Assembly (NCBI RefSeq): GCF_009914755.1 | Contig: NC_060947.1 | Source: the human T2T-CHM13v2.0 reference genome, Homo sapiens | Direction: 5' to 3' (one strand) | Length of the DNA stretch: 64,000 nucleotides | Shown here: piece by piece, positions 42,924 through 64,000 of the stretch | Layout: every line of letters begins with the position of its first letter | Numbering within the stretch: position 1 is the first letter of the stretch | Program-made: the position numbers and the translations under genes | The notes under the pieces: model-generated | Seen by the model: only the letters and a program-made list of their open reading frames with translations | What the model was told of the DNA's origin: nothing | The model's database searches: none

Positions 42924-43311
42924 TCATTCCATCTCCTTTCTAAGGTAAGTAGGTGCTAGACTTGGGGTTTTTAATAATTGGCCCACTCACGGGAGAGCCC
43001 TGGAAAAATGGCAGCAGGATTCTCCCCACTTGGGAAGAATTTGGTGAGAGCCAGGCAGAGGATCGGGGATCAACTCAGGGACCGGAGTAAAGTTGCAAGA
43101 GGGTCCCAGTTCCAGCATGTTGCTCAAGTATTGAGTGGAAAAACCAAAGCAAAAGACTGGGCCTTTGTAGCAAGTTGATACCTGGGGTCTGAAGAGAATT
43201 ACAGAAGCAATGAAGGCAATGGGAATGCTTACAATCTGGAGGCCAGTGTCAATTTTACTAGGAAATAGTGAAGTAAGAAGAAGGAGTCAAGGAATGACAA
43301 ACAGTCTTTTT

Positions 43312-43637
<326 letters not shown>

Positions 43638-44339
43638 TCAGTAGCCTTACATATTGATTTAATATAAATAATCAAGAATAACAGATACAAACTGTTGCAC
43701 AAGTTTGTATCTTGTGCACAAGGGGCTGCACAAGTCTCAAGCTGAGAGCCAGCAAGAACCTACTTGTCCTCTTCCCTCAGCAAACAGCATCTACCTGTTC
43801 TACAGAATCTATGTGCTACTGCCTGCTATGAAATAGCTATTTTGCCCTTCACTTTGCCACTTCCATGCCCTTCGTACCCTGGAGAAAAGGACAGGGTACG
43901 TAGGCTTGTCATGACATGGGCCAACAGGAGGTACCCAGTGAGGTCTCAGTCTTATAGGCCACTCCCAGAGAATGTAGCTCTCAGCTCCCAGCTGTGCTCT
44001 GCTGCCCTAGGAGTGGGGATGCAGGTGAGAACTGCTGTCTTCCTCTGGGACAGGCCTCCTGCCTCTCTTCATCCTCATCTCTCTCCTCAGCCTTGTTCCC
44101 TCTGGACTTGAAGCTCTACATAGGCAGACCAGACAATGCTGGGCTTTCAGGACCTCATAGATTGGATTCCTGAGGGAGAGGTCTTGAGAAGGGGATCCAC
44201 AGGCCAGCCCCAGTTGGTGGGCCTGGATGCTGGCATCTGAGCATCTGGACATCTTTTAGTTCTCATGCTGGGGGCTCACAGTGCAGGAAGGGTGTGTGAT
44301 CCAGTCTGGCTACTCCCCGCCTCCAGGCCATGAGCTTGA

Positions 44340-44779
44340 TCACATGGCCAGATGGAAAGCCCCCAAATGATTGAGTGTCCTGTGCGGGAACTCTAAAGAG
44401 GGAGATGAGAAAGACACAAAGAACTCCCCCTAGTCCTGAGCTCAAAGATGTCCGACTGTACTATAGCATGTAGGCCAATCTTGAGTGACAAATACTTTGT
44501 GGCCATACCCTTGAGAGGTAGAATGGGATGGAGGTAATCAGTGCGGTGATTGATGCCTTGTATCAGCTGCTGGTCCATCAGGAAGGGCTCCTTGTCCTCA
44601 TCCCTGCTACTGAAGTAAAGTGGACCTAGGAATACACATAGTACTTGCCACCCTGGCTGGGCAGAAATGCCTCTCCCTGGTAGGTGAGGTTGTGCAGGTG
44701 AGACAGCAGGTCTCAGGGCTCCCAGTTATGCAGAAATAATGCTAGGACTGGGGTAGCTCCTCAGGATGGACCAGAGTTT
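44340..44779 (-). pseudogene. Terminal exon of a decayed TNF-superfamily ligand gene (TRAIL-like/TNFSF10-like), TNF homology domain
   Basis: Acceptor ccttaac...cttctcttccttcccctccAG (AG at 44781-44780). Frame-corrected translation: ELPQS*HY/LHNWEP*DLLSHLHNLTYQGEAFLPSQGGKYYVYS*VHF/FSSRDEDKEPFLMDQQLIQGINHRTDYLHPILPLKGMATKYLSLKIGLHAIVQSDIFELRTR/EFFVSFSSPSLEFPHRTLNHLGAFHLAM*. This has the TNF motifs W, GxYYVYSQVxF, PILLLK-like, IFEL, FVS and GAFxL in the correct order. Confidence 0.85.
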
Positions 44780-44924
44780 CTGGAGGGGAAGGAAGAGAAG
44801 CAGGTGGCTGTTAAGGATGAGGGAGATCATCAACCTAGCATCCCACTGAACCTTCAGATTCAATTCAAGTTTTTGCCTCAGCTTTCCAAAGTCTCAAAGG
44901 TTCTTAACCAGGAGAGTGACTCGT

Positions 44925-45160
44925 TTAAATTATGACAAGAACCAGACAGCCTAGGTTCAAGTCTGGGCTGTACCACTCACTAGCTAGGTAACCTTGAGCA
45001 AGGAATTTTAACTTCTCTGGGCCTCAGTTTCCTTAAAATGTAAAACTGGGAAAATAATCTCTACCTTAATATGGAGATTACATGAGAAAGTGCAGGAAAA
45101 GGGCCCAGGACGGAGATTGGCACACCGGAGACATTCAACAAGCAGATTACTACTATTATT
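44925..45160 (+). mobile_element. MIR SINE (inside the inferred pseudogene intron)
   Basis: MIR core ttaacttctctgggcctcagtttccttaaaatgtaaaactgggaaaataat. Confidence 0.8.
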
Positions 45161-45410
45161 ACTGAAAGAAAGGCCGAATACCTTAGCTAAGCTTTCAGGT
45201 CCCTCCATGACATGGCCGTCCCCTCTGTTTCAGCCTTATCTCCCACTTCTCTGTTGGGGCTTTCAGCTCCAATCCTGTGGGATTGTTTCCTCTCCCGGCC
45301 CATTCACGGTTCCACTTCTGTGCCTTCGATCATGCTCTTCCCCAGTTTAAATTGCTCTTTCTCCTCTTTACCTAAGCAAATCCATCCCATCCTTCACATT
45401 CCCTCCCGCC

Positions 45411-45509
45411 CAGAGGCAGAGCTGCAGGGCACCAGAGGGAGGTGAGCAGAGAGGAGTGAGGAATGGCAGCCAGCTGCCCCTTGGATGCATTGTAGAGTTC
45501 ATCCTGGCT
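45411..45509 (-). pseudogene. Probable penultimate exon of the same TNF-ligand pseudogene
   Basis: Acceptor-like ttgtttttccacttcctttgcaag. Frame-corrected ARMN/LYNASKGQLAAIPH/LSAHLPLVPCSSAS contains the TNF strand-A motif SAHL (starts at 45450). The donor is degenerate. Confidence 0.6.
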
Positions 45510-45833
45510 CTTGCAAAGGAAGTGGAAAAACAAGCCCTGATGGAGATGGGCATGGAGCAGAGGTGGGATAGTGGTGCAGAAAAACATCACTGGGATTTTT
45601 TTCTGAGAACTCTTGGACCTTAGACTAACACAAAGTGGGAAGGGATTGCAGCCTTGTTCAGTTAACGGGCCCATACCCTCCCAACAAGAATGTAAGTTCT
45701 CAGAGCCCAACTTGTGACAGCATCAAGGTCCATAGAAATGGAGAGCTTCCGTACCTTAGAGGTGAGGCCAAATGGAGTTAAATTTTACAGAAGCCTGCTT
45801 TTAAATACTTCAAGAAAGAGAATTTAATGGGAT

Positions 45834-45834
<1 letters not shown>

Positions 45835-45869
<35 letters not shown>

Positions 45870-46260
45870 TCTGTCTTATATGTATATATAAACATACCTT
45901 TATATTACATAATATATTGATTATATTATATAGTATTTAATATATTAAGGTAATATATATTATATAATATATAATGTAATATATAAATATAATATGATAT
46001 TATAATGTATTATATGTGATATATAATTATAGAAAATTATATTATATATAAATATTATAACATATATTATATTAATATAGTCTAGTATAATATGATAGCT
46101 TATTATATTATTTATAATATATAATACATAAATATTACAATATATTGATTATATATTAATTACATAATATATTATAGAATATCTATAATCTATTATAGAT
46201 AATAGGATATAATATTGTACAGAATATATATTATATATACACTAACCACTTATATTTATA
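45835..46260. repeat. (CA)n followed by ~380 bp AT-rich low-complexity tract
   Basis: Direct inspection. Confidence 0.95.
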
Positions 46261-47552
46261 TCCTTGTTATAGCTAAGCCTTGTTATCCAAGGCTTCTAGG
46301 ATGTTAATACTAACCAGATATCTGGTTAACATCCAAAAGATCTTAATTAGGAATACACACTCCATGTGTTGTTTCTTTGAAGAAGCCCATACTTCAGTGG
46401 GCTGCCACAAATACTTAAGATATTTCCAATTGACACCAGAGGCTGTGAAATAGCATAAGGAAAATCACAAGTGATTTTTCCTTGGTGAAATGAATGATGT
46501 TCAACTGATGATGTTCAAGACATGTGGATTGGCTAGAAATATTATATGGGCACTACACATGTATATGCATAGACTACAAGGATTTAACCAGCCTACTGGA
46601 CAGATTTCTCTTAGCTTAAGTTTCCCAAGCAGTCCAGTGTTCAGAGGCTACTGCATGATGGTTGCCTTAATCCTACCACTAAAATATGTCACACGCATAG
46701 TGCTGTCAGGGCATCTAAAGGGACAGAGATCTGGGATTTTGTGAACTTATAGAACAGTCCATATATTTGTAAGTGCTTGCTCTCTCCTTCACACTCTATA
46801 TCTGGTCTGTCAGCGAGTCCTAATGTTCTACCTTCAAAATATTTATCCAGACTCAACCCACTTTGACCATGCCCATGGCCATTGCTCTGCTGCAAGCCAC
46901 CATGAATCACCTTTAACTGGATGATTGCAAGAGCCTGCCAGCTGCACTCCTTGTTCCACTCTTGACTCCTTTTAGTGTGTCTCTCCATAGAGCAGCCAGA
47001 ATGTTCCTTTTAAAGCATATGTCACATAAGTTGACAAGTAACATCACTCCTCTACTCAGAACCCTCTGATGGCTTCCTGTTTCATTTATTAGAAAAGCTG
47101 AAGTGCTAACTCTGGATTCCAAGATCCTCACTGATCTGGTGACCCTCACTGATCTGGTGCTCTCCCACCTGCTGATCCCCATTGTTAGCCTTGTTTTTTC
47201 CATTACTGTTCTTTCCCTCATTCACTTCCCTCCAGCCACACTGGCCTCCTCACTGTCCCTCAAGCATTCATCTTTTCAAATTATATGGATAGGTAGGTTA
47301 TTTATCCACAAATTTCACTTCAAGGTAACAAAAGGGTGTTACAAATTATTTGCTATAAAAACACATTGAGTTTGGTGGATCACTATCCATCAAAAGTTGG
47401 ATAGTGTTTAAGGATCACTATCTTAGAGTTTCCTTCCTTTACAATCCTCCCTTCTTCTTCATGAGGCTATGTCCTGGCCTCTATTTCTCTGCATTTCACT
47501 GCTGACACTCTCTATTTTATGGCTTACGTTTCCCTAAAAATGTATGGATAGT

Positions 47553-48770
47553 CTGTGGTAGCCAGTTGTATTAGTTTGTTCTCACATTGCTATAAAGAAG
47601 CACCTCAGACTGGGTAACTTATAAAGAAAAGACATTTAGTTGACTCACAGTTCTGCAGGTTGTTCAGGAAGCACGGCTAGGGAGGCCTCAGGAAACATAC
47701 AATCATAGAAAGTGAAGGAGAAGCAGGCACATCTTACATGAGACAGAGGAAGAGAGAGTGAAGGGGGAGGTGCTACACACTTTTAAACAACCAGATCTAA
47801 TGAGAACTCACTATCACAAGAACAGCAAGGAGGAAATCCACCCTCATGATCCAGTCACCTCCCACCAGGCCCCTCCTTCAACACTGGGGATTACAATTCA
47901 ATATGAGATTTGGGTGGGGACACAAATCCAAACCATGTCACTAGCCTCCAGGATGGCCCCCAATAATTCCTCCCTCCTGGTATTCATACTATTGTGTAGC
48001 CCCATTCCACACTGCATAGGATTGACCTGTGTAACCAATAGTATATTGTGGAAGTGATGGAGTGTGACTTCTAAGGCTAGATCATAAAAGACATTATGGC
48101 TTCTGTATTTCCCTCTCGGACTACTCTTTCTGCGGAAAGTCTGCTGCTATGTGATGGGGACGCTTAAGCAAGCCTGTGGAGAGGTCCATGTTATGAGGAA
48201 CTGAGGCCTCCTGCCAATGTGCAGCACCAATTTGCCAGCTATATGAGGGAGCTACCTTGGTAATATATCCTTCAGCTCCAGACATGCCTTCAGAGGATGG
48301 CAAATGCCATTGACATCTTGACTGTAATCTCATAAGAAACAGAGCCAGAATCACCTAGTTAAGCTTTCCCCAGATTTCTGGCCAGCATAAATTGTGTATG
48401 ATAATAAATATATATATATATATTTTTTATGACAGGGTCTCGCTCTGTTGCCGGGGCTCGAGTGCAGTGGCATGATCACTGCTTCTTGCAGTCTCAAACT
48501 CCCGGGCTTAAGTGATCCTCCCACCTCAGTTGGTGTGCGCCACCACGCACAGGTTAGTTTCGTGGGTTTTTTTTTTTTTCTTTTTTTTTTTTTTTAGAGA
48601 TGAGGTCTGTCTTTGTTGCCCAGGCTGCTCTTGAACTCCTGGTCTCAAGCAATCCTCCTGCCTCCGCCTCCCAAAGTGTTGGGATTATAGACGTGAACCA
48701 TGGTTCCCAGCCAGTAATAAATCCTTGTTGCTATTTTAAGCCACTAAGTTTTGGAATATTTTGCCAAAGG
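47553..48770 (+). mobile_element. MaLR MLT1F/G-like LTR with nested antisense MST LTR (47568-47941) and AluJ (48422-48712)
   Basis: tgtggtagcc start; MST tgtattagtttgttctcacattgc...aaaccatgtca; ttttaagccactaagttttgg end. Confidence 0.75.
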
Positions 48771-48949
48771 TGATTGACCTTTTTATCTTTTTATACCTTT
48801 CATAGATTGTCAGTTTCTCCTGAATAGAATATAAGCTCTAGAGGGTGGAAAGCTTGTCTGTTTTGTATCCCCAGAGTGTAGGACAATGCCTGGCACACAG
48901 CAGCTACCCAATAAATATCAAATGAATGAGTAAATTACCTTTGGCCAAA

Positions 48950-50190
<1,241 letters not shown>

Positions 50191-50382
50191 AAATAATATT
50201 GACTGCATCCAAAAAACAAGGCATCTATAAGACAAAAACATGAAAACAAAAGTATCTCATGGTGGCCAAGAACCTTCAAATTACCTAATGTTTGTTTTTG
50301 TTTTTGTTTTTTGAGACAGGGTTTCACTCTGTTGCCCAGGGTGGAGTGCTAAATAATTTTGACTGCATCAAAAAATCAAGAC

Positions 50383-51084
<702 letters not shown>

Positions 51085-52179
51085 TCCTAATATTTGTCTT
51101 TTATAAGTTGAATATTAAAGAATGATTTTGACAGATTTTTTTTGTTTTGTGCTTTTAAGAAATGAAGAAACAACCTTTATCTTATTTTTTTTAGCAGACT
51201 TTAATTTTTAGAGCAGTTTTAGGTTCACAGCAAAATTGAGTGGAAAGTACAGCGATTTCTCATATTGCCTTATGATTTTAGATAGCAATGCCTCTATTTT
51301 TGGGGGCTACTTGAAAATTTCAATATCTGTGTTCATGAAGACAGAATCTCAATCAACAATTCATAAATAATTGTGGGGATTTTCAGAATGGCTTAGTAAG
51401 GAGCTTGGAAAATATTTTCCCTCCAAAAAACAACAGTAAAACCAGGGAACATGATCAAGCACAACATTAGAAATGTTATCAAATGCATCCAACAAATTGA
51501 GAAGCAGTTATTCAAGAAAAACCATGAAGTCTTGATTAGAACAGTGGGAGTCTGGCAAACATCACAGCTGATCTGAGGTTTCTCTACAGGTTGGGGAAAG
51601 CAACAGACTAGCAGACTATTCAGAAATTTAACAAGGACATCTGGGGAACAAGACAGGCATAGCGGGCTTTCACATATCCCTGGTGGTCTGTAAATCTGTG
51701 TGCTTGCACAAGGTAGCACACTTGCTCAGGGGAGACAGAGAGGGCTCTAGCATCTACTGATTCCATGCTGAACATGAGGTCTTGCACACAAAGAAAACAA
51801 AAGCTTGGGCAGTTTTGTAAACCACCTGAACTTTGAACACATTTACCAAACCACACACGAAGTAATCGGCAAATGGTGGAAGTCCTAGCGGCTAAAAACG
51901 CTTAAGCACAACTTCTGATTAATCATAGGCTGACCATTAAGCTATGCTGACTCGGTGGTAACCTCCAGAAAGCCAGGCTTAAGAATACAATTTTTTAAAA
52001 AAAAATGAGCGGACATCAGTAGCTACATACTGCAGACAAGATAGCCTCTACAAAATGAGTCTAAGCAAGCCACTAAATGAACAAACAGAAATGATAACCA
52101 CTGGGGACAGAAATCAGAATCCAGAGTTTGTACAATATATTATCTAAAATATCCAATTTTCAACCAAATGTGAGATTTA

Positions 52180-52479
<300 letters not shown>

Positions 52480-52737
52480 TCAAAAAAAAAAAAAGAAAGA
52501 AATAGTAAAGTGCTAACTGTACACAGGGAAAAAGCAGTAATAGAATCTTTCTTGGGAGGACCCAGATGTTGACTTAGGAGACAGATTTCAAAGCAGCTTT
52601 TAAAAATATGTTTTAAAAACTAGTAGAAACTACTTTTAAAGAATTAAAGTATGATGACAATGTTTCATCAAATAGAGAATATCAATAAAGAAGTAGAAAT
52701 TATAAGGAAATATAAATTTTATATATATTATTATATA

Positions 52738-52950
52738 ATTGAACAATGAAAACACTTGGACACAGGAAGGGGAACATCACACACCGGGGCCTGTCGTGGG
52801 GTGGGGGGAGGGGGGAGGGATAGCATTAGGAGATATACCTAATGTAAATGACAAGTTAATGGGTGCAGCACACCAACACGGCACATGTATACATATGTAA
52901 CAAACCCGCACGTTGTGCACATGTACCCTAGAACTTAAAGTATAAAAAAA
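52738..52950 (+). mobile_element. Short young L1PA 3' fragment
   Basis: attgaacaatgaaaacacttggacacagg...gaacttaaagtataaaaaaa; 50-bp flanking duplication. Confidence 0.95.
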
Positions 52951-53503
52951 AAGAAGTAGAAATTATAAGGAAATAGAAATTTTATATATATTATTATATA
53001 TAAATATATAAATATATACATAATTTATTTAGATATAAAATTTCTACTTCTTTATAATTTCTTAAGAAATTATAGAAATTATATATAATTGTAAAGAAAT
53101 TATAAAGAAGTGAAGAAATTAAAAAGAAGAAATTTTATATATAAAATGTCTACTGTTTTATAATTTATATACATAATTATATTTTATACATAAAATTTCT
53201 ACTTCTTTATAATGTATAATTATGCTTTTTATATATATAAAATTTCTACTTCTTAATAAACATTGTGGGGATTTTCAGAATGGCTGAGTGAGGAGCATGG
53301 AAAATATTATCCTACCCAAAAACAATATTAAAGAATTAAAGAAAAGTATGATGACATAGTGTATAGTTAGCACTCTCCTATTTCTTTGTAAATCTCATAT
53401 TTTGGTTGAAAATGGGATATTTTAGATAATATATTGTACAAACTCTAGATTCTGATTTCTGTCCCCAGTGGTTGTTATCATTTCTGTTTGTCCTTTTAGT
53501 GGC

Positions 53504-53952
53504 TATGATGGTTAATACTGAGTGGCAACTTGATTGGATTGAAGAAAGCAAAGTATTGATCCTGGGCGTGTCTGTGAGGGTGTTGCCAAAGGAGATAAAC
53601 ATTTGAGTCAGTGGGCTGGGGAAGGCAGACCCACCCTTAATCTGGTGGGCACACTCTAATCAGCTGCCAGTGAATATAAAGCAGGTCGAAAAATGTGAAA
53701 GGCGAGACTGGCCTAGCCTCCCAGCCTACATCTTTCTCCCATGCTGGATGCTTCCTGCCCTTGAACATCAGATTCTAATTTCTTCAGTTTTGAGGCTCAG
53801 ACTGCCTCTCCTTGCTCCTCAAGCTTGCAGAGAGCCTATTGTGGGAACTTGTGATTGTGTAAATTAATAATAAACTCCCCCCCATATATAATAATCTGTA
53901 TAATATTACATATATATTAGTTCTGTCCCTCTAGAGAACCCTGACTAATATA
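53504..53952 (+). mobile_element. ERVL MLT2A-like solo LTR
   Basis: t(a)tgatggttaatactgagtg...gagaaccctgactaatata; perfect 5-bp TSD gtggc. Confidence 0.9.
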
Positions 53953-54291
53953 GTGGCTTACTTGGACTCATTTTGCAGAGTCTATATATATGTCATAATA
54001 CTTTAATTCTTTAAACATAGTTTCTACTATTTTAAACGTATTTGAACCCTAGAAATTTAAACATTTTTAAATTGAAGCCAAGGTTTCTAGGAGTTGCCAC
54101 TGAGTCAGCATAGCTTAATGATCAGCCTATGATTAATTGGAAGTTGTGCTTAATTATATATATAACGAGCTAGTGTTGAAAAGTATAATATTTGGAATGA
54201 AATTTCACCAGAGGGGCTCATGAATAGATTTGAGATGGCAGGAGAAAGAATCAGTGAACTCAAAGATAGATCGTTAAAGAGTATGCAACTT

Positions 54292-54472
54292 GGGCGGGCA
54301 TGGTGGCTCACGCCTGTAATCCTAGCACTTTGGGAGGCCGAGGTGGGTGGATCACCTGAGGTCAGGAGTTTGAGACCAGCCTGGCCAATATGGCGAAACC
54401 CCATCTTTACTAAAAATACAAAAATTAGCTGGGCATAGTGGTGGGCACCTATAACCCCAGCTACTTGGGAGG
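54292..54472 (+). mobile_element. AluS truncated in the right arm
   Basis: Ends abruptly at ctacttgggagg with no A tail. Confidence 0.9.
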
Positions 54473-54552
54473 AATAGCAAAACTGCAGATGTAAATGCAT
54501 CCATAGCAATAATTCCATAAATTAATGAAATCAAATGTCAGAGCTAGGCCTC

Positions 54553-55748
54553 TGTGGTTCTCAGAATCCTAAGATGGTCCCCAATATTCCTGTTCCTGGT
54601 ATACACTTATTGTAGAGTTTCCTCCTCTTGACTGTAGGCAGAACCTGTGAACATGATGGGAAGTTACTCCCATAATTAGGTTACTCTGTATGGCAAAGGT
54701 GAAGGAATTCTGCCACTATAATTAAGATTTCTAATCAATTGACTTTGGGCTAATAAAAGGGAAGATCATCCTGGGCAGGCCTGGCCCAGTCAGGTGAGTC
54801 CTTAAAAAAGAGTGTCTCGTGTTGAAGAAGTAAGCTACCATTTGTGAGAGGGCCTATGGAGGGAGCCACATGGCTAGAGCCCCTGTTGGGGATGGCCTCT
54901 AAGAGCTGAGGGCAGTCCCTGGTAGACAGCTAGTAAGAAAACAGGGCTATCAGTCCTGCAACTGCCAGGAAGTAAATTGTGCCAACAACTGGTGAGCACA
55001 GAAGAAGATTTCAAGCCTCAGCTGAGATCACAGCTCCAGCCAATGCTTTGACTTCAGCCTGGTGAGACCCTGAGCAGAGACCCAGGTTGATGGACTGGAT
55101 GTTGTGTTTGTGTCCCCCTGGAAATTCATATGTTGAAACCCTAATCCCAATGTGATGGTATAAGAAGGTGGGATTGTTGGAAGGTAATTGGTCATGAGGG
55201 TAGAGCCTTCATGAATGGGATTTGTGCCCTTATAAAAGAAACCCCAGAAAACTCTCTTACCTTCTTTCTGCCATGTGAGAATATACTGAGAAGGCAGCAA
55301 GTCTGTAACCTGGAAGAGGGTCCTCCCCAGAAGCTGACCATGCTGGCACCCTGTGGTCAGGCTTCCCAGCCTCCAGAACTGTAAGCAGGAAATTTCTGTT
55401 GTTTAAGGCCTCAAATCTATGGTAATTTGTTATAGCAACCTGATCTGACTGAGATACTCAGCTAACCTATACCCAGAGTCTTGGCCACAGAAACTGTGAG
55501 ATAATAAATGGGTGTTTTTTAAAAAATTATTATTATCATACTTTAAGTTTTAGGGTACATGTGCACAACATGCAGGTTAGTTACATATGTATACATGTGC
55601 CATGTTGGTGTGCTGCACCCATTAACTCGTCATTTAGCATTAGGTATATCTGGAATTGAACAAAGAGAACAGATGGACACAGGAATGGGTGTTGTTTTGA
55701 CCTGCTAAGTTTGTGGTCATTTGTTATGCAGCAATAGAAAACAATACA
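54553..55748 (+). mobile_element. MaLR MLT1D/E-like LTR with nested MLT1A/MST-like LTR (~55089-55456) and a small L1
   Basis: tgtggt... start and tttgttatgcagcaatagaaaacaataca end. Confidence 0.7.
55517..55684 (-). mobile_element. Tiny L1PA 3' fragment with 5' inversion
   Basis: Antisense 3' UTR to 55651, sense piece 55652-55684, TSD aatgggtgtt. Confidence 0.9.
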
Positions 55749-56751
55749 GCCTTGAACTCTGGTCTTTCTTGTAGTTAATTCATACCCTGAACTACTCTGC
55801 TCTATACCACCATTCAGAAATTGGCTGTTCATGTACCACAAAGGCCTAGTAGACATTTTTTGTTTAGCCTGCAAAGTATGTTAAAACATTTTTAAAAAAT
55901 TAGCTGTCTTGGGAGGCCAAGGTGGGAGGATTGCATGAGCTTAGGAGTTCAAGACCAGCATGGGCAATATAGTGAGAACCAGCTCATACAAAAAACCAAA
56001 AAAATTAAATAAAAAATAACTGCCTATATCTAAATATCAGAGGATTTCATATGCATGTCGAAATTCATGGCTTCCCTTGAAAAACTGGCAGACGTGGCAT
56101 CATTGGCCCATATTACCACCTAGGAAGAACTGGCTGGAGGTGAAAAGTCCCTGCCTTGTTGAGACAGGGCCTGAGCCCTGTAGTTCAGCACAAGCCAGCT
56201 CCACATGTGACCCACATGGCTGCAGTTAGGCATTTGAGTATGTAAGTCCTGATATCTAACTTCAAAGTTGATCACTGCTTGCCTCAGTTTTGTTTCTAGT
56301 TCGGTCACTGTTTCCTTTCGCTCTCTTCCTGACACAATGCTACAAGAATTTAGATCATAAATCCTTTGGGAATGAGTGCCCAGATCAGAGCTGGATATTA
56401 ATCTGAGAAGAGAAAATGAACTTTGGTACTATGGATTCAATTAAGTTGAGTCTGGGAAACTCTTCCTTTCACTAAATTTCTTATTAGTGTAGGATTTCAG
56501 TTTGACAAAAATCCTGCATTCTTTTGTCCTTTGAGGAATAGATGGTGAAACGAGCAGCATGTTTTGTTTTGTTTTTCTTTACTACCATGGAACATGAGGG
56601 GAAAATGCCGTGAAGCCTCAAAAGGAAGGCTCCATTGAGGTCGTGTGGTACAAAGGATGAATGGTTAAGTTTTTAAAATTGATGCAAATTAACATAAAAT
56701 ATAAAACAATTTTTGGAAAATGATATAAATGATGCCAATTGCGTCCACTCA

Positions 56752-57608
56752 TGTAAAAGAAAAAATTTTTCTTTTACTCACAACACTTCTGATGCTGAAT
56801 ATGTGGGAATTTTCCCCACACCAACCAATTCTTCAACTTTCTGCACACCAACTGGGTATCCTACAATTCATTTCTGACACTAATTATCCCCTGTGAGCTC
56901 AGACTCCACAGGTTAAGGACTCAATCCCACAAGACTGCCCTCACATTAGGTGCCAGTTACAAGTACCAGGTTGTCACCTGTACTTTTGACCTATAAATCA
57001 GGGGTTTCCACAAGCCACTCCTCATGTTTGATAATTTGCTAGAATGGCTCACAAAATTCAGGGAAGCATTTACTTACATTTATCAGTTTATCCTAGGATA
57101 TTACAAAGGATACAGATAGTAGCCAGATGAAGAGATACAGAGGACAAGGTCCAGAAGGATGCTTAGTGCAGAAGCTTCTGTCTCCATGCAGTTAGAGTCC
57201 ACCACTCTTCTGGCAAGTGGATGTGTTCATCAATTCAGAACCTGTCTGAACCTCATTGTTTAAAGTTTTTATGGAGGCTTCATTACCATGTAGTCATGAT
57301 TAATTAAATCATTGGCCACTGGCAATTAAGTCAATCCCCATTCCCTCTTCCCTCCCCAGAGGTTGGGGATGGGGCTGAAAGTTCCCACCCTCTGATCATA
57401 TGACTGGTTCCTGTGGCATCCAGCCCCCATCCTCCCAAGAGTCACCTCACTAGCATAAACTCAGGTATGGCTGAAATGAGCTTATTGTGAATAAAAAAAA
57501 AAAAGATGCTCTTCTCACTCCAATCACTCAGGAAATTCCAAGGGTTTTAGAAACTCTGTGCCAAGAACCAAGGATAAAGAACCAATATATATTTACAATT
57601 CTATCACA
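56752..57608. mobile_element. MER21-like LTR
   Basis: acacttctgatgc...caccaactgggtatcctacaattc...cccacaagactgccc. Confidence 0.75.
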
Positions 57609-57681
57609 ATGTCAGAGGCCACTCCCCTCGTCTTTGAATGTGGATCCCTTACAGGAAAACCATTGTATCTCTCAGAGAATT

Positions 57682-58359
57682 TGTAACCTCCTAACGGGTT
57701 ATCCTTGCCCACTGCCCAGATAGAGCCAATTTATCAAGAGGGGGAATTGCAATAGAGAAAGAACTTAATTTATACAGAACTTGTTAAACAGGAGACCAGA
57801 GATATGTTACTCAAATCAGTCTCTGAAAATCTGGGGACTAGGGTTTTTCAAGGGTAGTTTGTGGGAAGGAGGAATGGCTTGGGAATAAGTGCTGCTGATT
57901 GGTTGTGGATGTAATCATGAAGATGTGGAAAATGGTTCTCAAGTGCACACTAAGTCTATTGCTGGGTGTGGCCACAGGACCAGTTGGTGGTTCAGGGTGG
58001 AGCCATCTGCAGTCAGAAATGCAAAAACCTGAAAAGACATCTCAAAAGGCCAATCTTAGGTTCTACAATAGTGGTGTTGTCTACAGGAGTAATTGGAGAA
58101 GTTGAAAATCTTGTGGCTAATTTATTAGTCCTATAATACCAGTCTTGTCACCAGCAAAGAAGGAGGTTTGTTTCAGCAAAGGACTGTTATCATCCTTGTT
58201 TCAAAGTTAAACTGTAAACTAAGTTTCTCCCACAGTTAGTTCAGCCTATGCCCAGGACTGAACAAGGGCAGCTTGTTTAGAAGCAGGATGGAGTCAAAGT
58301 CCGATCTCTGTCACAGTCATACTTTTCCTACTGTTATCATTTTTGCAAAGACAGTTTCA
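57682..58359 (-). mobile_element. ERV1 LTR8-like solo LTR
   Basis: tgtaac...ttttgcaaagacagtttca; homologous to 13642-14253. Confidence 0.8.
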
Positions 58360-59009
58360 CATTTACATTGGGGGTAGCATTTATAGAACAGATATAGCAC
58401 TAGTATGAACACCCATATGACTAGCCCTTGAGGAAGCCAGTTAGTGTGGGGTAGGGATAGATAGAAAGAAATAATTTGCCCTGCTTTTTGTTGTTATTTT
58501 GTTTTCCTTTTTTCCTATGGGACATGAGGGAAGAAAACCTTGTGGGCCAGTAGAAAGGAAGGCTCCAATGAGGTTGTGCAGTATGGACAGTGAATGGCTG
58601 TTAAGTTTTTAAAATTGGGGCAAATTAACATGAAATATAAAGCATATTTTGGAATATGGTATAAGTAATGCCAATTGTAGCAACTCATGTTTTGTTTTTA
58701 TTTTTCAAATATTTCTATGCAATAATAGAAATCACTTGTATGAATTTAGTTTACCCATGATCTCTGGACCTCGCTGTAAGGAAGTCTTTCAGAAAATCAA
58801 AAATGTGAGCCTATATGAAATATTTGTGTGTGCATGCACATGGCATACCTGACTTAGAAAAGAATTCTATATGTATTCAGTTTTAGAACTTGTCTTTAGT
58901 TTTAGAGTTTGTAAAAGGTTGAAAATGTTTCACTGTCCATATTAAATGTTTTACTATGCTAAAAAGAACATCTAAAAATCAATAAGGAAAAGACCAATAA
59001 CCTGTTTTT

Positions 59010-59447
59010 TGAAAGAGCTGTATATGCAAAGCAATCCCCAAATGCAGAAGGAGCTGAGAAACCAAAGGAGGCAGACAAGTCCAGCTCGTCATCACAGGGT
59101 GATTTTATTGGGGAATATAGTGACAGAAGCGTGGTCTTGGGTGGCCAGAAGACAGGTAGGTCTTTGTGCCATTACTCCCCAGACCCGGGGATTATATACC
59201 GTAGGGAAGGGTACATGTGCTTCAGAGGGAATCGGTTGGAGTTTGGTCTAAGGGCAGGATTGACAGTAAGTATGAATTTATCAAGGTTGATTTGGTCTAA
59301 AGGCAGGATTTTTGGTAAGGATGTGCTCTTTCATACACAAGGAATAATAGATAAACTGGAAATCTCAGAGGCATTCCTGGAACTGGGGCTAATCAAAAGT
59401 CAGCATGGCAGATTGGCATCCAAGATGGAGTTACTTTAGCCTGTACA
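59010..59447 (-). mobile_element. Solo LTR (LTR47-like) inserted in old L1M
   Basis: Reverse strand starts tgtacaggctaaagtaactccatcttgg; AATAAA present on the minus strand. Confidence 0.6.
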
Positions 59448-59717
59448 CATCCTAATCGAAAAATGAACAAAAGATATGAATAGAAAATTCATAAAATAGA
59501 AAATAAAAATGATCACAAGGAATGTGAAAAGTTGTTGAAGCTCAGTACTAATCAGTGAAAGTCAAATCAAAATAACTAGATTTTCAATACGTTTGCTAAT
59601 ATCAAGTATTGGCGAGGGTAAAGGATACTCTCACACACTGATGGGGAGTATGTACATTTGAGCCACTCTGAAGGGCAACTTGGCAGGAAGTATTACATTT
59701 TATAAGAATGTATTTAT

Positions 59718-60246
59718 GCAGAGGAGGCTTCAGGTCGACCTGTGGCAGTCCAGCCCTTGGGGGTTCCCTCGCCTTCCACCTCCTGCTCATCTGCTTCACT
59801 AGCTATCCCTATGGTGTCGGTGTGCAGGCCGTGGCCTGCTGTGGCCATAGCACTTCTGGCTCTGCTGGTCTGCCTGGGGGCGCTGGTCGACACCTGCCCC
59901 ATCAAACCCGAGGCTCCTGGCGAAGACGAGTCCCTGGAGGAGCTGAGCCACTATTATGCTTCCCTGTGCCACTACCTCAACGTGGTCACCAGACAGTGGT
60001 GGGAGGGTGCAGACATGTGGTGAGGACCCCTGAGGTCTCCTTGGGGATCTGCTAACCGCACCCACCTGATTTGCATATCCACTTCCTACCCGGGAAACAC
60101 GGATTCCCCACCTGGCCATCAGGGTCTGGGCAGGATTCAGGTGGGGACTTCCACCCGCATCTCGGTACCCCCTCCCCCTGGGCTGGAGGGCTGTGTATGG
60201 TCCTTCCCTGGTCCCAAAATAAAGAGCAAATTCCACAGGAAAAGAA
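59718..60246 (+). pseudogene. PYY3: Processed pseudogene of peptide YY; open 70-aa ORF at 59811-60023
   Basis: [70 protein letters not shown] is prepro-PYY-like. Intronless, with AATAAA at 60218-60223, an A-rich remnant, and TSD aagaatgtatttat (59704-59717) / aataatgcatttat (60247-60260). Confidence 0.95.
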
Positions 60247-60766
60247 AATAATGCATTTATGCATTACATGTAGGAACAATATTTAAAATAACGAACCCAT
60301 TCTTCTCGCTTCCTCCAAACACCCCTTCTGGCCACAGTGATAAGTTCAGGAATATGATCTCAGCCCTGGCCTAAGTCATTCAGCAACTAAAAGTCACTTG
60401 GCCACAGTGATTGATTCAGGAGTGGACGTATGACATAAACTGGTCCAATTTTAGCACTTTTATTGGAAATGCTGGGTGGGACACAGACTCTCTCTTCTGG
60501 CCATGAAGAAGGAAACATGTACTTGGGATCTGCTAACAACTATTTTAGGACCACGAGGGGATAACCTGCCTGAGAATGGGGCCAACACTAAGGAAACACT
60601 GACATACCAAGCCTTGTCTGAAGTCAGCCCTGCCTCTGGTCTTGTCAGTCACATGAGCCATTCAAGTTCCTATTTTCTTTAAACCAGTTTGAGTTTTTCT
60701 GTTACTTGCAATTGGAAGTATGTTGACTGACACAATAATCCTTCACCAATCTCAGTTATCAGGGCC

Positions 60767-61260
60767 TGTGACAGATCCTATGAACTGACTCACTCAATAC
60801 CCTTTCCAATCCCCTTATTGCATGCCTTCCTGTATTTCAGAGTCTGGAAAGCTGAAAACTCTATTTCTCACAATTCCTTGCAGCTGGGATTCTGGATGTG
60901 ACTTAAGTTCTACTAATCAGAACTAGCTCAAGACTTGAATTTGGATATGAGTTAAGCAGAGAGAAACAATACTCAAGGCCAAACATTTACTGGTGCAGAT
61001 CATAGCAAAGATTGTGCAGTCTGGGAATCAGCTGCTATTGATGGTGGCTTTCCAGCTTCCTGATCATAGCAGGAGTAGCAGCTACCTAAGGTAGTTCAGT
61101 TCTGTGGTATGGATTTGGAAGCACTCCTGGAAGCTCTACCTAGATCCTTTTTCTTCATCCCTACCCACGATTCTGTAAGCCAGTTAAATACTATAAATTA
61201 CTTTCTGCTGACATTAGCTAGAAAAGATTCTGCTCTTTGAAAATAAACCCAGATCATACA
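60767..61260 (+). mobile_element. ERVL LTR33-like LTR
   Basis: tgtgacag...tccttgcagctgggattctggatgtgac...cataca. Confidence 0.6.
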
Positions 61261-61314
61261 GTATTCTTTGAGCCTTTGACACTACTACACTCAGGGCTGT
61301 GGGAGCCAGTCAAA

Positions 61315-61597
<283 letters not shown>

Positions 61598-62893
61598 AGA
61601 GCCAGTCTATGTAGCAAAAATAAACCAGAGCTAAATAAAAGCATACTCGTTTCTAGACATTTGCAATTATCTCTATCCTCACCACTTAAAACTAGGATTT
61701 TTAAAAATGTCCTGTCTATACAAGTCCTAAGCTGGTCTGGTGACCCAAGAATAGCCTCTGTACAGTTCTAGTGTCACCCTGCTTTTGCTTGTACTTTTCC
61801 CTCAACCTCTACCTTCAATGGTATAACAGGCTTTTCTGTGGAAGGTCATCCATTATTATTACCAGCAAAGAGAATTATGGCGGTAAGAGGACCCAGTAAG
61901 ATGCCTCTGGAATGCGAATGTTCCCAGGCATTGTCCAGACTCTCAAATTTCAGCTATGTTTAACTAGAAAAGATGATGCCAAACAACAATTATCAGGAAC
62001 AATCAAATGCAGACAGTTTAGTAAATAACTCGCCTAGACCAATTTTCCCTGCCAGAAATTCAGCATTTGATTATGCTTTCAATTTAGATTTTTGCCTCTT
62101 TGTACTCCAGGGGTAGGTCAGGGCATGCAGTGGACAGTCAATAAATACATCCTAAAGAAATGAATTTTGTACCAGCTCTACATTCTAGGATAACAGGTCT
62201 GCTCAGAAAACAAATGGTGTCAGTTGGACCCATTCTGTTGGGCTACCCTAACAGAATACCACAGACTAGGTGGCTTAAACAACAGAAATTTATTTTCTCA
62301 GGATTTAGCCAACATAACCAGGCTTAAAATGCAGTTGTAAGAAGGAAGTCGTGAGGGAGTGCAGACTTTGATAGATAGCCCCAATAAAAGCCCATCATTC
62401 ATTCAACAAATGTTTACCAAGTCCCAACCACAAAGTGCTGATGGTGCAGAAAGGAACAAGGTACAATTTTTCTCACAAAAAGTTGTCTGATGTTGGGAGA
62501 CACACAATAAACATCTAATTCCAATTCATTGTGTTCAGCACTAGGTCACAGTTCAGTGGCAAGGAACCACTAACTCTACCTGGAAGAGTCATAAAAAAGA
62601 AGAGGACACATGGGCCTGGCACCAGAAGGACTGCCAATGTTGCATCTGGTAACTCAATGTGTCATTTACCTAGGGCAGTACTGGGTTGCCTAAATAGTCA
62701 GATGCCTAGGGCATTAGCAAAGCTGGGGTAAAACAAAAATGTAAATCAACTTTACATTATATATAAAACAAGAGAAAATAAGAAGTTGGTTAAATTTTGT
62801 TCCATCTATTTTATGGTGCAATATCATTTTATTCTGAATTACATATGGGGTAGGAAGAGGTGGGCATAACTTTTTCTAAAGTATATGTATTCT

Positions 62894-63030
62894 GGCCAGG
62901 TGTGGTGGCTCATGTCCGTAATTCCAGCCCTTTGGGAGACTGAGGCAGGAGGCTCACTTGAGCCCAGGAGTTACTTGAGCCTGGGCAACATGGTGAGACC
63001 CCATGTCTACAAAAGATTTTTAAAAAATGT
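62894..63030 (+). mobile_element. Alu monomer (FLAM-like)
   Basis: Single Alu arm. Confidence 0.8.
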
Positions 63031-63656
63031 TTAAAAAGTATCCATATTCTGAAAAACAATACACATACACAAAATTGCATAAAGTATAAATGTACAACTA
63101 AAAGTTGTTATAAAGTAAACACTATGTAACCATCACCCAGGCAAGAAATAGAACATTGTCTGCAGCATCCCAGGAGCACCACTGCAGACGGCCAGGTGTC
63201 TTGGTTTGCCTTGGACTGTTCCACTTTTAGCACAGAAAGGCTCAAATCCCAAGGAAACTCCTCCCTGGGATGTGAAAAGTCTCAATTTTCTGTGATGGGT
63301 ACAGAAGATTGGGGGAAAAGCACAAAACCCATATGGTGACCCGCCCCCCCCGCCCAAATAGGGAGTGAAAACAGCAGTTTGTAATGTGAAATGGATATGG
63401 CATAGATTCTCTGCCTTCTGTAGTTGCTGTGGCCATTTTTTTTGCCCCAACTGCTGATATTGACAACCATGATTTGCAGCTCACAATAATGATCATCCAT
63501 TGTTGCATCACGGTGACTGATGCCACTTTAGCATGCAACTTAAGTGCATTGAAATTGTGAGCATTAACAAGCTCGCCTTTGTATTTGCCTGTGGATCAAC
63601 TGTTGTAATTTGTATCAAGGTTGTTTAACCTTTCACATCATGAATATTGTGACCAT

Positions 63657-64000
63657 GTGCATTAGTTTGCTAGGGCTACCATAACAGAATACCACAGACT
63701 AGGTGGCTTAAACAACAGAAATGTATTTTCTCACAGTTCTGGAAGCTGACAATCCAAGACCAAGGTGCCAGCAGGTTTGGTTTTTTCTGAGGCTTCTCTC
63801 CTTGGCTTGCAGATGGCAACCTTCCTTCTGTGTCCTCACAGGTCTTTCCTTTGTGCTTGTGAATCCCTGGTGTCTCTGTGTGTGGAAATTTCCTCTTTGT
63901 ATAAGGACACTGGACAGATTAAATTAGGGCCCACCCTAATAGCCACATTTTAACGTAATCACCTCTTTAAAGGCCCTATTTCCGAATACTGTCACATTCT
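63657..64000 (-). mobile_element. MaLR MLT1A-C-like LTR, running off the window end
   Basis: attagtttgctagggctaccataacagaataccacagactaggtggcttaaacaacag. Confidence 0.8.

What the first reader, a model, noticed from the sequence alone, without database searches (positions are those of the whole stretch)
44340..44790. Fossil TNF-superfamily ligand: candidate unitary pseudogene of the TRAIL-like (TNFSF10-like/TRAIL2) gene
Seen: on the minus strand, a branch point, pyrimidine tract and AG (44781-44780) open a 440-nt exon. After correcting three 1-bp frameshifts (~44735, ~44616, ~44428) and three in-frame stops (TAG 44744-44742, TGA 44715-44713, TAG 44628-44626), it reads ...LHNWEP*DLLSHLHNLTYQGEAFLPSQGGKYYVYS*VHF...QQLIQGINHRTDYLHPILPLKGMATK...GLHAIVQSDIFELR..EFFVSFSS...LGAFHLAM* (stop 44342-44340). 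Established: this is the ordered motif set of a TNF homology domain (W, GxYYVYSQ, FEL, FVSV, FGAF), and TNFSF genes encode most of that domain in one large last exon. Inference: the HLxNxTY, GKYYVYSQ, QLxQxIN, PILLLKG and GLHA motifs match my recollection of the TRAIL-like paralogue of birds and fish better than human TRAIL or RANKL. That paralogue has no functional human gene, and I recall the chicken gene lying on chromosome 4, part of which is orthologous to the conserved mammalian X. The acceptor shows this is not a retrocopy. It would be the in-situ remnant of a lost ligand. The ORF track shows only a 61-aa piece (44393-44578). I cannot tell whether it is already annotated.
Basis: partly seen in the sequence, partly recalled or inferred. 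Interest (0 to 1): 0.92.

Follow-up and report, generated by a model that had tools for sequence, protein, structure and literature searches.

The report
Dead TRAIL-like cytokine gene on X
Between CLCN5 and AKAP4 on the human X chromosome lie the decayed first and last exons of a TRAIL/RANKL-like cytokine gene that other vertebrates still use, so placental mammals lost it by decay in place, not by deletion.

Summary
On the minus strand, 44779-44340 is a 440-nt last exon of a TNF-superfamily ligand. It follows a pyrimidine tract and the AG at 44781-44780, and is broken by three in-frame stops and three frameshifts. Its closest relatives are not human TRAIL or RANKL. They are the "TNFSF10-like" proteins of marsupials, platypus, reptiles, birds and amphibians (about 50% identity; family HMM E 5e-11 and 5e-6; tblastn sum E 5e-20). 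This is the orthogroup Marín called TNFSF-Fish4 (2020) and TNFSF11B/F4 (2025). His synteny table places it next to CLCN5 in 17 of 18 non-human gene rows, between AKAP4 and CLCN5 in platypus, and lists human as "Absent" at exactly this interval. I also found the exon 1 relic (cytoplasmic tail plus membrane anchor) 26 kb upstream, at 71024-70806 just outside the window. It is single copy and has no ATG. The internal exons are not recoverable. The relic keeps only 27 of 42 family-invariant residues. The gene's loss in placentals is already published. The surviving human remnant appears in none of the six literature searches. GENCODE and HGNC tracks could not be checked. Interest is moderate.

The parts
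44780..44815 (-). 3' splice site of the last intron: candidate branch site (CCTTAAC), pyrimidine tract, and AG at 44781-44780. The intron is phase 1.
   Evidence: Read directly. The phase 1 position matches the last introns of human TNFSF10 (L001) and TNFSF11 (L004).
44340..44779 (-). Decayed last exon (440 nt) encoding most of the TNF homology domain. It ends GAFHLAM-stop, at the same place as the marsupial proteins (GAFRLAM-stop).
   Evidence: tblastn with P0002 gave three collinear matches in three frames, sum E 5e-20. Family HMM: E 4.7e-11, 5e-6 and 0.32. Identities: 71 of 143 codons to Antechinus, 66 of 144 to platypus. Single copy in the genome.
44742..44744 (-). In-frame TAG. In most of the orthologue alignments it sits at or beside the conserved Cys of ELPQSC.
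44734..44743 (-). Frameshift 1, between ELPQS and LHNWE.
   Evidence: placed at 44743 or 44734, depending on the orthologue used
44713..44715 (-). In-frame TGA just after the conserved NWE.
44626..44628 (-). In-frame TAG at the Gln of the KYYVYSQ strand.
44573..44627 (-). Frameshift 2. The net shift lies somewhere in this variable loop and its exact position cannot be resolved.
   Evidence: different orthologues place it at 44627, 44612, 44603-44573 or 44579
44492..44494 (-). A Tyr codon where all 43 family members have the Cys of TKCW. One codon is deleted on each side of the following Leu.
   Evidence: That the equivalent Cys of TRAIL binds zinc is recalled knowledge, not tested here.
44429..44431 (-). 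Frameshift 3, between FELR and the FVSVSS strand.
   Evidence: all 8 orthologue alignments agree
44816..64000 (-). Former intron territory of the dead gene, up to the window's end. The gene continues OUTSIDE the window to its exon 1 relic (cytoplasmic tail plus transmembrane anchor) at continued window numbering 71024-70806 (chrX:49,484,806-49,485,024 of T2T; held in L027). That relic lies inside a 122-aa open frame (71090-70725) with no ATG, and there is no GT at the orthologous exon end. Exons 2-4 should lie in this stretch or just beyond it, but they are not recognisable.
   Evidence: Exon 1 relic: own-genome search with P0005. Family HMM positions 5-71, E 3e-6 in 84 kb. 27 of 68 identities to Antechinus; DP scores for the nine orthologues 48-93 (83 for Antechinus, whose 100 shuffles reached at most 48). 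Single copy. Sequence read. Internal exons were not found by three methods.
45412..45450 (-). Weak, unproven candidate for the exon carrying the first THD strand: SAHLPLVPCSSAS against marsupial SAHITLIPYGSAS.
   Evidence: tblastn E 4.6. In the scan it ranked 2nd of 168 bins with the platypus query only, and was not in the top 8 with Antechinus or alligator. Not found by the HMM.

Best explanation
This is the in-situ remnant (unitary pseudogene) of the vertebrate TNF-superfamily ligand gene variously called TRAIL-like, TNFSF10-like, TNFSF-Fish4 or TNFSF11B.

In other jawed vertebrates the gene sits next to CLCN5 and encodes a type II membrane protein with a C-terminal TNF homology domain. In the human lineage it was inactivated and has since drifted neutrally. 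What survives is exon 1 (tail plus membrane anchor, start codon gone) and, 26 kb downstream on the same strand, the large last exon with its splice acceptor. That last exon carries three stops, three frameshifts, small deletions and substitutions at invariant residues. The exons between them are no longer recognisable.

It makes no protein, and nothing here suggests a present function.

Shown here: the homology, the orthogroup, the position, the lesions and the loss of constraint. Inferred: that inactivation happened early, in or near the stem of placental mammals.
For: **Homology**
- The 77-aa middle piece alone finds only human TRAIL chains in the PDB (5 of 5 hits, best E 3e-4).
- In 1.84 billion representative proteins it finds three TNF-domain proteins at 44-48% identity, besides the window's own ORF.

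**Orthogroup**
- Those proteins belong to a family that its sources name TNFSF10-like. It occurs in marsupials, platypus, turtles, crocodilians, birds, squamates and amphibians. None of the rows with an organism name among the 120 listed is from a eutherian.
- An HMM of 43 full-length members ranks the three pieces first among all six-frame ORFs of the window, in collinear order.
- The maximum-likelihood tree places the relic inside this family (93/91) and inside its amniote part (92/85).
- Joining it to human TNFSF10 or TNFSF11 costs 9.8 and 9.6 log-likelihood units (p-AU 0.032 and 0.039).
- A mammal or therian clade is not rejected (p 0.31).

**Position**
- The window lies between CLCN5 and AKAP4 (hub table).
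- Marín 2025 Supplementary File S3 lists TNFSF11b beside CLCN5 in 17 of 18 non-human gene rows. Platypus, Latimeria, gar and zebrafish chr 7 read CCNB3-AKAP4-TNFSF11b-CLCN5, and Homo reads 'Absent' in that slot.
- The platypus row of his alignment reads the same as my P0010 over the part shown.

**Gene structure**
- The exon 1 relic is 26 kb upstream on the same strand.
- The last intron has a phase 1 acceptor, as in TNFSF10 and TNFSF11.
- The stop codon sits at the marsupial position.

**Not a duplicate**
- There is no DNA similarity to the 15 other stored human loci from the Pfam scan, which include the TNFSF last exons.
- Both relic exons are single copy.

**Decay**
- Six disabling lesions and no ATG.
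- Only 27 of 42 family-invariant columns are kept, against at least 92% for every real member left out in turn.
- The terminal branch is 1.41, against 0.16 for platypus.
Against: - The exact place within the family is unresolved. The relic sits in a polytomy with platypus, marsupials and sauropsids, and in the best tree it falls outside platypus plus marsupials (63/93).
- The AU rejections are only marginal, and long branches are involved.
- Taken separately, the pieces are weak against the general Pfam model (1 of 5 pieces, E 0.04).
- Exons 2 to 4 were not found, so the two relic exons are joined by inference from order, strand and distance.
- The exon 1 match is E 0.98 genome-wide. It becomes significant only in the local 84-kb search (E 3e-6) and by its position.
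- I could examine no other eutherian genome, so the timing of the loss is untested here.
- The synteny rests on one author's supplementary table.
Confidence: 0.93

Rival explanations
1. Chance resemblance: three short open pieces that happen to carry TNF-like motifs.
For: Individually the pieces are short. Only 1 of 5 reached Pfam TNF, at E 0.04. The third piece has E 0.32 against the family HMM.
Against: - The three frames give collinear, adjacent matches with sum E 5e-20, and family HMM E 4.7e-11 and 5e-6.
- This is the only non-gene locus above the Pfam cut-off in a 3.1-Gb scan.
- The stop codon is in the same place as in the marsupial proteins.
- A second exon of the same family lies upstream on the same strand.
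- The locus is exactly where the gene lies in other vertebrates.
Confidence: 0.01
2. A degraded duplicate or retrocopy of human TNFSF10 (TRAIL) or TNFSF11 (RANKL), rather than the orthologue of a lost gene.
For: TRAIL is the best solved-structure match. Human TNFSF10 is the sister of the whole TNFSF10-like family in the tree (85/78).
Against: - blastn finds no similarity to the stored TNFSF10 or TNFSF11 last exons.
- Identity to marsupial TNFSF10-like proteins is about 50%. The TNFSF10 last exon matches a marsupial TNFSF10-like protein (P0005) at 45% identity, and the relic groups inside the TNFSF10-like family.
- Clades with human TNFSF10 or TNFSF11 are rejected at p 0.03-0.04.
- A splice acceptor and an exon 1 relic 26 kb away rule out a processed copy.
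- Synteny with CLCN5 is conserved.
Confidence: 0.02
3. The locus is dead as a cytokine gene, but part of it has been kept for another use, for example as an exon of a non-coding transcript or as a regulatory element.
For: The exon 1 relic lies in a 122-aa frame with no stop or frameshift, while the last exon has six lesions in 440 nt. Both relic exons have escaped repeat insertion and deletion.
Against: - RefSeq annotates no gene or functional element here (hub table).
- There is no Rfam family in 43000-47000.
- The open frame has no ATG.
- Exon 1 identity to orthologues is only 27 of 68, as expected for neutral decay.
- An open stretch of this length in a former exon can persist by chance. 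My rough estimate is a few per cent.
Confidence: 0.04

Closest known systems
TNFSF11B/F4 (TNFSF-Fish4 of Marín 2020; NCBI 'TNF ligand superfamily member 10-like'; the 'TRAIL-like' gene of birds and fish)
   Same: - Highest sequence similarity (about 50% over the last exon, 27-28 of 68 over exon 1 to marsupials).
- Same C-terminal end, and the same N-terminal tail plus membrane-anchor pattern.
- Phylogenetic placement inside the family.
- Same chromosomal slot beside CLCN5.
   Different: - The human copy is broken: no start codon, three stops, three frameshifts and a lost invariant Cys.
- The internal exons are unrecognisable.
- 36% of the family-invariant residues that can be read have changed.
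Human TNFSF10 (TRAIL, chr3) and TNFSF11 (RANKL, chr13)
   Same: - Same fold family (PF00229).
- Same gene layout, with a large last exon entered through a phase 1 intron a few codons before the conserved Trp.
- TRAIL is the nearest solved structure.
   Different: - They are paralogues, not the source of the relic. There is no DNA similarity, they lie on different chromosomes, and the tree separates them.
- Both are intact genes.
Other ancient unitary pseudogenes of the human genome (for example vitellogenin relics or GULOP; recalled, not examined here)
   Same: A gene that works in other vertebrates, decayed at its ancestral position, with only some exons still recognisable.
   Different: This one is a cytokine of the TNF superfamily, and none of the six literature searches found its human remnant described.

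Membership tests
TNF superfamily ligand (Pfam PF00229, TNF homology domain) | Sequence match to the THD profile above the curated cut-off | tested here: met
   27 bits (cut-off 23) when the frame is read through stops in the whole-genome scan. As separate pieces, only 14.3 bits and E 0.04 for 1 of 5. The related intact proteins score 104-108 bits.
TNF superfamily ligand (Pfam PF00229, TNF homology domain) | Type II membrane layout: N-terminal cytoplasmic tail and a single membrane anchor upstream of the THD | tested here: met
   The exon 1 relic matches family HMM positions 5-71, including the anchor (AIWVLQVTCTTCLFVCF against ILALQVASTTGLFVYF). Topology is inferred from homology only.
TNF superfamily ligand (Pfam PF00229, TNF homology domain) | Intact open reading frame able to give a trimer-forming protein | tested here: not met
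   Three stops, three frameshifts, no ATG, and internal exons not found. It is a dead member, not a working one.
TNFSF11B/F4 (TNFSF10-like) orthogroup | Closer to members of this group than to TNFSF10, TNFSF11 or other paralogues | tested here: met
   The only hits in 1.84e9 representatives are members of this group. Inside the clade at 93/91. Alternatives rejected at p-AU 0.032 and 0.039. Support is moderate because the branch is long and the outgroups were human only.
TNFSF11B/F4 (TNFSF10-like) orthogroup | Position between AKAP4/CCNB3 and CLCN5 | tested here: met
   The window starts in the CLCN5 3' end, and AKAP4 follows at +94 kb (hub table). Published table: CLCN5 is adjacent in 17 of 18 non-human rows. 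The platypus row is tied to P0010. I did not inspect those genomes myself.
Unitary pseudogene | No functional parent copy in the same genome | tested here: met
   Own-genome searches with P0005 and with the relic DNA find only known paralogues at 45% identity or less, and the relic itself.
Unitary pseudogene | Unprocessed: intron-exon structure kept at the ancestral locus | tested here: met
   A splice acceptor precedes the last exon, and exon 1 lies 26 kb upstream on the same strand.
Unitary pseudogene | Loss of selective constraint | tested here: met
   27 of 42 invariant columns and 48 of 85 columns conserved at 90% or more are kept. Members left out in turn keep at least 92%. End branch 1.41, against 0.16 for platypus and about 0.33 for marsupials.
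Unitary pseudogene | Lesions shared with other placental mammals (fixes the date of loss) | not testable with these tools
   No eutherian genome other than the window's own is held. A search of the 5.8e9-protein library for similar small ORFs found only the window's own.

The most novel reading that the evidence does not exclude
The inactivation may not have been a single event in the stem of placental mammals. The human relic is well enough preserved to allow that the gene survived into the placental radiation and was lost more than once. In that case some placental lineages (for example xenarthrans, afrotherians, or particular orders) might still carry an intact TRAIL/RANKL-like ligand beside CLCN5 that gene catalogues have missed.
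Probability: 0.08. Interest if true: 0.65.

Novelty: new member of a known kind. Interest (0 to 1): 0.45.

Why it matters
The TNF superfamily is among the most studied cytokine families, and humans are usually credited with 18 or 19 ligand genes (recalled). The published evolutionary models record this ligand as simply "Absent" from humans and other placentals. The remnant adds three things:
- It shows that the loss was pseudogenisation at the ancestral site, not deletion or rearrangement.
- It gives an independent, sequence-level confirmation of the published synteny-based orthology.
- It provides concrete markers: a lost start codon, three stops, three frameshifts and a Cys-to-Tyr change. 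These can be mapped on placental genome alignments to date the loss and to ask whether it coincided with the loss of a receptor or with the origin of placentation.

It changes nothing about human biology today. It is a modest but clean addition to the catalogue of ancient human unitary pseudogenes.

Tried and rejected
- **Internal exons.** I looked for exons 2-4 in 84 kb (window plus L027 and L028) in three ways: the family HMM on stop-to-stop ORFs, the HMM on frames read through with X, and a frameshift-tolerant alignment scan with three orthologues. Nothing stood out from background.
- **Hit at 57236-57198 (ELMNTSTCQK against ELINNQTCLK, E 38).** I set this aside as chance. It lies in what I recognise from memory as a MaLR-type LTR, but I did not test its copy number.
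- **Plus-strand hit at 62962-63126.** This was the top hit for exon 2 with all three queries (scores 42-45 against 40-41 for the next; HMM E 4.4). It is on the wrong strand, and part of it overlaps a high-copy repeat at 62900-63029 (47 matches listed of 3592 candidates). Rejected.
- **45450-45412.** Kept only as a weak candidate.
- **Marín 2020 supplement.** The one supplementary file held had none of my search terms.
- **Motif searches in the Marín 2025 supplement.** Searches for ungapped motifs failed because the alignment is gapped. The accession search succeeded.
- **Prairie-grouse paper.** It did not give the chicken chromosome.
- **Zebrafish lateral-line preprint.** It gives functions for tnfsf10 and tnfsf10l3, but I could not map those symbols to Marín's accessions, so I do not use it.
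- **Not run.** No structure or complex prediction was run. A fold of a broken frame would add nothing.

Full report
**1. The observation**

Read on the minus strand, 44830-44340 shows a candidate branch site and a long pyrimidine tract, then AG at 44781-44780. An exon follows that ends in TGA at 44342-44340.
- 44712-44629, DLLSHLHNLTYQGEAFLPSQGGKYYVYS
- the 110-aa frame 44725-44396, holding QQLIQGINHRTDYLHPILPLKGMATK...GLHAIVQSDIFELR
- 44429-44343, GEFFVSFSS...LGAFHLAM

**2. Is it more than chance?**

Against the general Pfam TNF model, only 1 of the 5 pieces I submitted matched, weakly (E 0.04, 14.3 bits, profile positions 11-35). The other evidence is much stronger:
- The middle frame alone, searched against all PDB chains, returned 5 hits at E up to 10. 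All were human TRAIL, the best at E 3.2e-4.
- A six-frame scan of the whole 3.1-Gb assembly with PF00229 returned 16 matches. The first 13 are open frames, and I translated 12 of them. I recognise these as last exons of TNFSF genes such as TRAIL, RANKL, CD40L, FASLG, TNF and LTA. Those gene names are my recognition, not a call.
- The 14th match is this locus (window 44548-44727, 27 bits against a cut-off of 23).

**3. What it is related to**

- The 77-aa in-frame part of the middle piece was scored against 1.84 billion representative proteins. It gave 4 hits at E up to 1e-3. One is the window's own 61-aa ORF. The other three are proteins of 274-385 aa at 44-48% identity, each with a full Pfam TNF domain (E about 1e-30).
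- Run back against the window by tblastn, P0002 gives three adjacent collinear matches in three frames:
  - 44733-44617, 61.5% of 39
  - 44620-44408, 45% of 73
  - 44426-44343, 43% of 28
  - The sum E is 5e-20. The last match ends at the protein's own C-terminus (GAFRLAM against GAFHLAM-stop).
- Upstream of the first frameshift, the relic reads LVHPEELPQS where the marsupial proteins read LDHLGELPQS. The homology therefore starts right at the acceptor.
- A word-indexed search with P0002 found 301 relatives at E up to 1e-10. The 120 listed are named by their sources 'TNF ligand superfamily member 10-like' (or TNF10). They come from marsupials (Antechinus, Petaurus, Gracilinanus, Monodelphis, Vombatus), platypus, turtles, crocodilians, many birds, squamates, caecilians and axolotl. 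None of the rows with an organism name is from a placental mammal.
- The intact family is closer to TRAIL (113 bits) than to RANKL (74 bits) in the PDB.

**4. Lesions**

I wrote a frameshift-tolerant protein-to-DNA alignment and ran it with 8 orthologues. Identities were:

| Orthologue | Identities |
|---|---|
| Antechinus | 71 of 143 |
| Petaurus | 76 of 157 |
| Monodelphis | 77 of 163 |
| platypus | 66 of 144 |
| turtle | 68 of 155 |
| alligator | 63 of 137 |
| guineafowl | 57 of 123 |
| caecilian | 56 of 133 |

All runs need the following:
- the three stops
- a frameshift at 44743-44734
- one somewhere in 44627-44573, a variable loop where the position cannot be resolved
- one at about 44430
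- small in-frame deletions

The Cys of the invariant TKCW motif is a Tyr codon (44494-44492).

The bookkeeping fits. The relic exon is 440 nt against 443 nt expected from Antechinus.

**5. A second exon, outside the window**

- Searching the whole genome with the Antechinus protein returned the paralogues, the two pieces above (E 4.5e-7 and 1.1e-5), and a weak match of residues 3-71 at chrX:49,484,803-49,485,018 on the minus strand (E 0.98). That is 6.8 kb beyond the window's end and 26 kb upstream of the last exon.
- I fetched 20 kb beyond the window. In the resulting 84 kb, the family HMM gives this ORF E 3e-6 over positions 5-71, the cytoplasmic tail and membrane anchor. It is the second best hit of all six-frame ORFs.
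- Identities are 27 of 68 to Antechinus and 28 of 68 to wombat. Alignment scores for the nine orthologues run from 48 (platypus) to 93, and are 80-93 for the three marsupials. The shuffle control was run for Antechinus only (score 83, against a maximum of 48 in 100 shuffles).
- The 122-aa open frame around it has no ATG at all, and there is no GT where the orthologous exon ends.
- Both relic exons are single copy in the genome.

**6. What could not be found**

Exons 2-4 (HMM positions about 72-188) were not detected by any of three methods. The apparent hits are discussed under Tried and rejected. They were either chance or overlapped a repeat.

**7. Orthology by tree**

The tree used 34 rows and 161 columns: 25 family members, 8 human paralogue last exons, and the relic read through with X at every break.
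- The relic falls inside the TNFSF10-like family (93/91) and inside its amniote part (92/85). Its order relative to platypus, marsupials and sauropsids is unresolved.
- Its end branch is 1.41 changes per column, against 0.16 for platypus and about 0.33 from the marsupial stem to tips.
- Forcing it to human TNFSF10 or TNFSF11 is rejected marginally (p-AU 0.032 and 0.039).
- Forcing a mammal or a therian clade is not rejected (p 0.31).
- Caveats: long branches, and human-only outgroups.

**8. Orthology by position**

- Marín 2020 (passages read) defined TNFSF-Fish4. [quoted passage not shown]
- Marín 2025 (passages and Supplementary File S3 parts read) renames it TNFSF11B/F4.
- His table gives Homo sapiens as CCNB3 - AKAP4 - Absent - CLCN5 - USP27X, and platypus as CCNB3 - AKAP4 - TNFSF11b - CLCN5. 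CLCN5 is adjacent in 17 of 18 non-human gene rows. The exception is Xenopus, marked as a transposition.
- The window begins in the 3' end of CLCN5, and AKAP4 follows 94 kb on (hub table). The relic therefore sits in exactly the slot marked 'Absent'.
- The platypus row of his alignment (XM_029067367.1) reads the same as my P0010 over the part shown. This ties the protein family I found to his orthogroup.

**9. Loss of constraint and timing**

- Of 59 columns invariant in 43 family members, 42 carry a readable relic residue and 27 are kept (64%).
- Of the columns conserved at 90% or more, 48 of 85 are kept.
- Every true member left out in turn keeps at least 92% (median 100%).
- The end branch is 4-9 times longer than those of living mammalian orthologues. 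That is about what release from typical purifying selection over the whole branch would give. This is inference, resting on recalled typical dN/dS values. It points to an early loss, in agreement with Marín's finding that no eutherian has the gene. I could not test this on other placental genomes.

**10. Rivals**

- Chance is excluded by the statistics and by the position.
- A copy of TRAIL or RANKL is excluded for four reasons: there is no DNA similarity, the tree separates them, the intron and upstream exon are kept, and synteny is conserved.
- A residual non-coding use cannot be excluded. It has nothing in its favour except an unbroken frame in exon 1. RefSeq lists nothing here, and Rfam finds nothing.

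**11. Novelty**

- The loss of the gene from placentals, and the empty slot in human, are in print (Marín 2020, 2025).
- A surviving human remnant is not mentioned in either paper. The word 'pseudogene' occurs 0 times in the 2025 text. It occurs once in the 2020 text, about shark FASL.
- My six full-text searches turned up no other report.
- The library lacks most subscription journals, for example Redmond et al. 2022, Premzl 2016 and Kaiser et al. 2005, none of which I saw.
- I could not consult GENCODE, Ensembl or HGNC pseudogene tracks.
- On this evidence it is a new, modestly interesting member of a known kind: an ancient unitary pseudogene.

Noticed in passing
window 59718-60248 (+): The annotated PYY3 pseudogene lies between the two relic exons, on the opposite strand. 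It therefore sits inside what was once an intron of the dead TNF-ligand gene.
   Followed up: no
L027:6725-7090 (continued window numbering 70725-71090), minus strand, outside the window: The exon 1 relic sits in a 122-aa frame with no stop, no frameshift and no ATG, while the last exon has six disabling lesions in 440 nt. This is probably chance, but an exaptation was not excluded.
   Followed up: partly
window 44393-44578 (-): The 61-aa ORF inside the relic exists as a 'protein' cluster (P0001) in the public protein libraries. It is seen on 304 contigs, the longest 3390 bases. It therefore seems to be a fragment of pseudogene called as a gene on short assembled contigs, which is a caution for such libraries.
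   Followed up: partly
window 45412-45450 (-): SAHLPLVPCSSAS resembles the first THD strand of the family (SAHITLIPYGSAS). It lies about 630 bp upstream of the last exon, and a good donor-like site (TTAG|GTAAAG) lies near 45372. It is not significant on its own.
   Followed up: partly
window 62900-63029: A high-copy repeat (47 matches listed of 3592 candidates in the genome) that is not among the longest masked stretches the hub lists (a partial list). It partly underlies a spurious plus-strand match to exon 2 of the family.
   Followed up: yes
P0006 against P0008/P0009 (marsupial proteins): Petaurus isoform X2 and the wombat protein lack a 49-residue stalk segment (LKTQAQG...KSYLSS) that is present in isoform X1. 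This segment is probably one cassette exon. P0003 lacks it too.
   Followed up: no
P0007 (Monodelphis model, 432 aa): The opossum model starts at the stalk. It also runs about 175 residues past the point where all other family members end (…GAFRLAV). It looks like a mis-predicted gene model, not a real extension.
   Followed up: no
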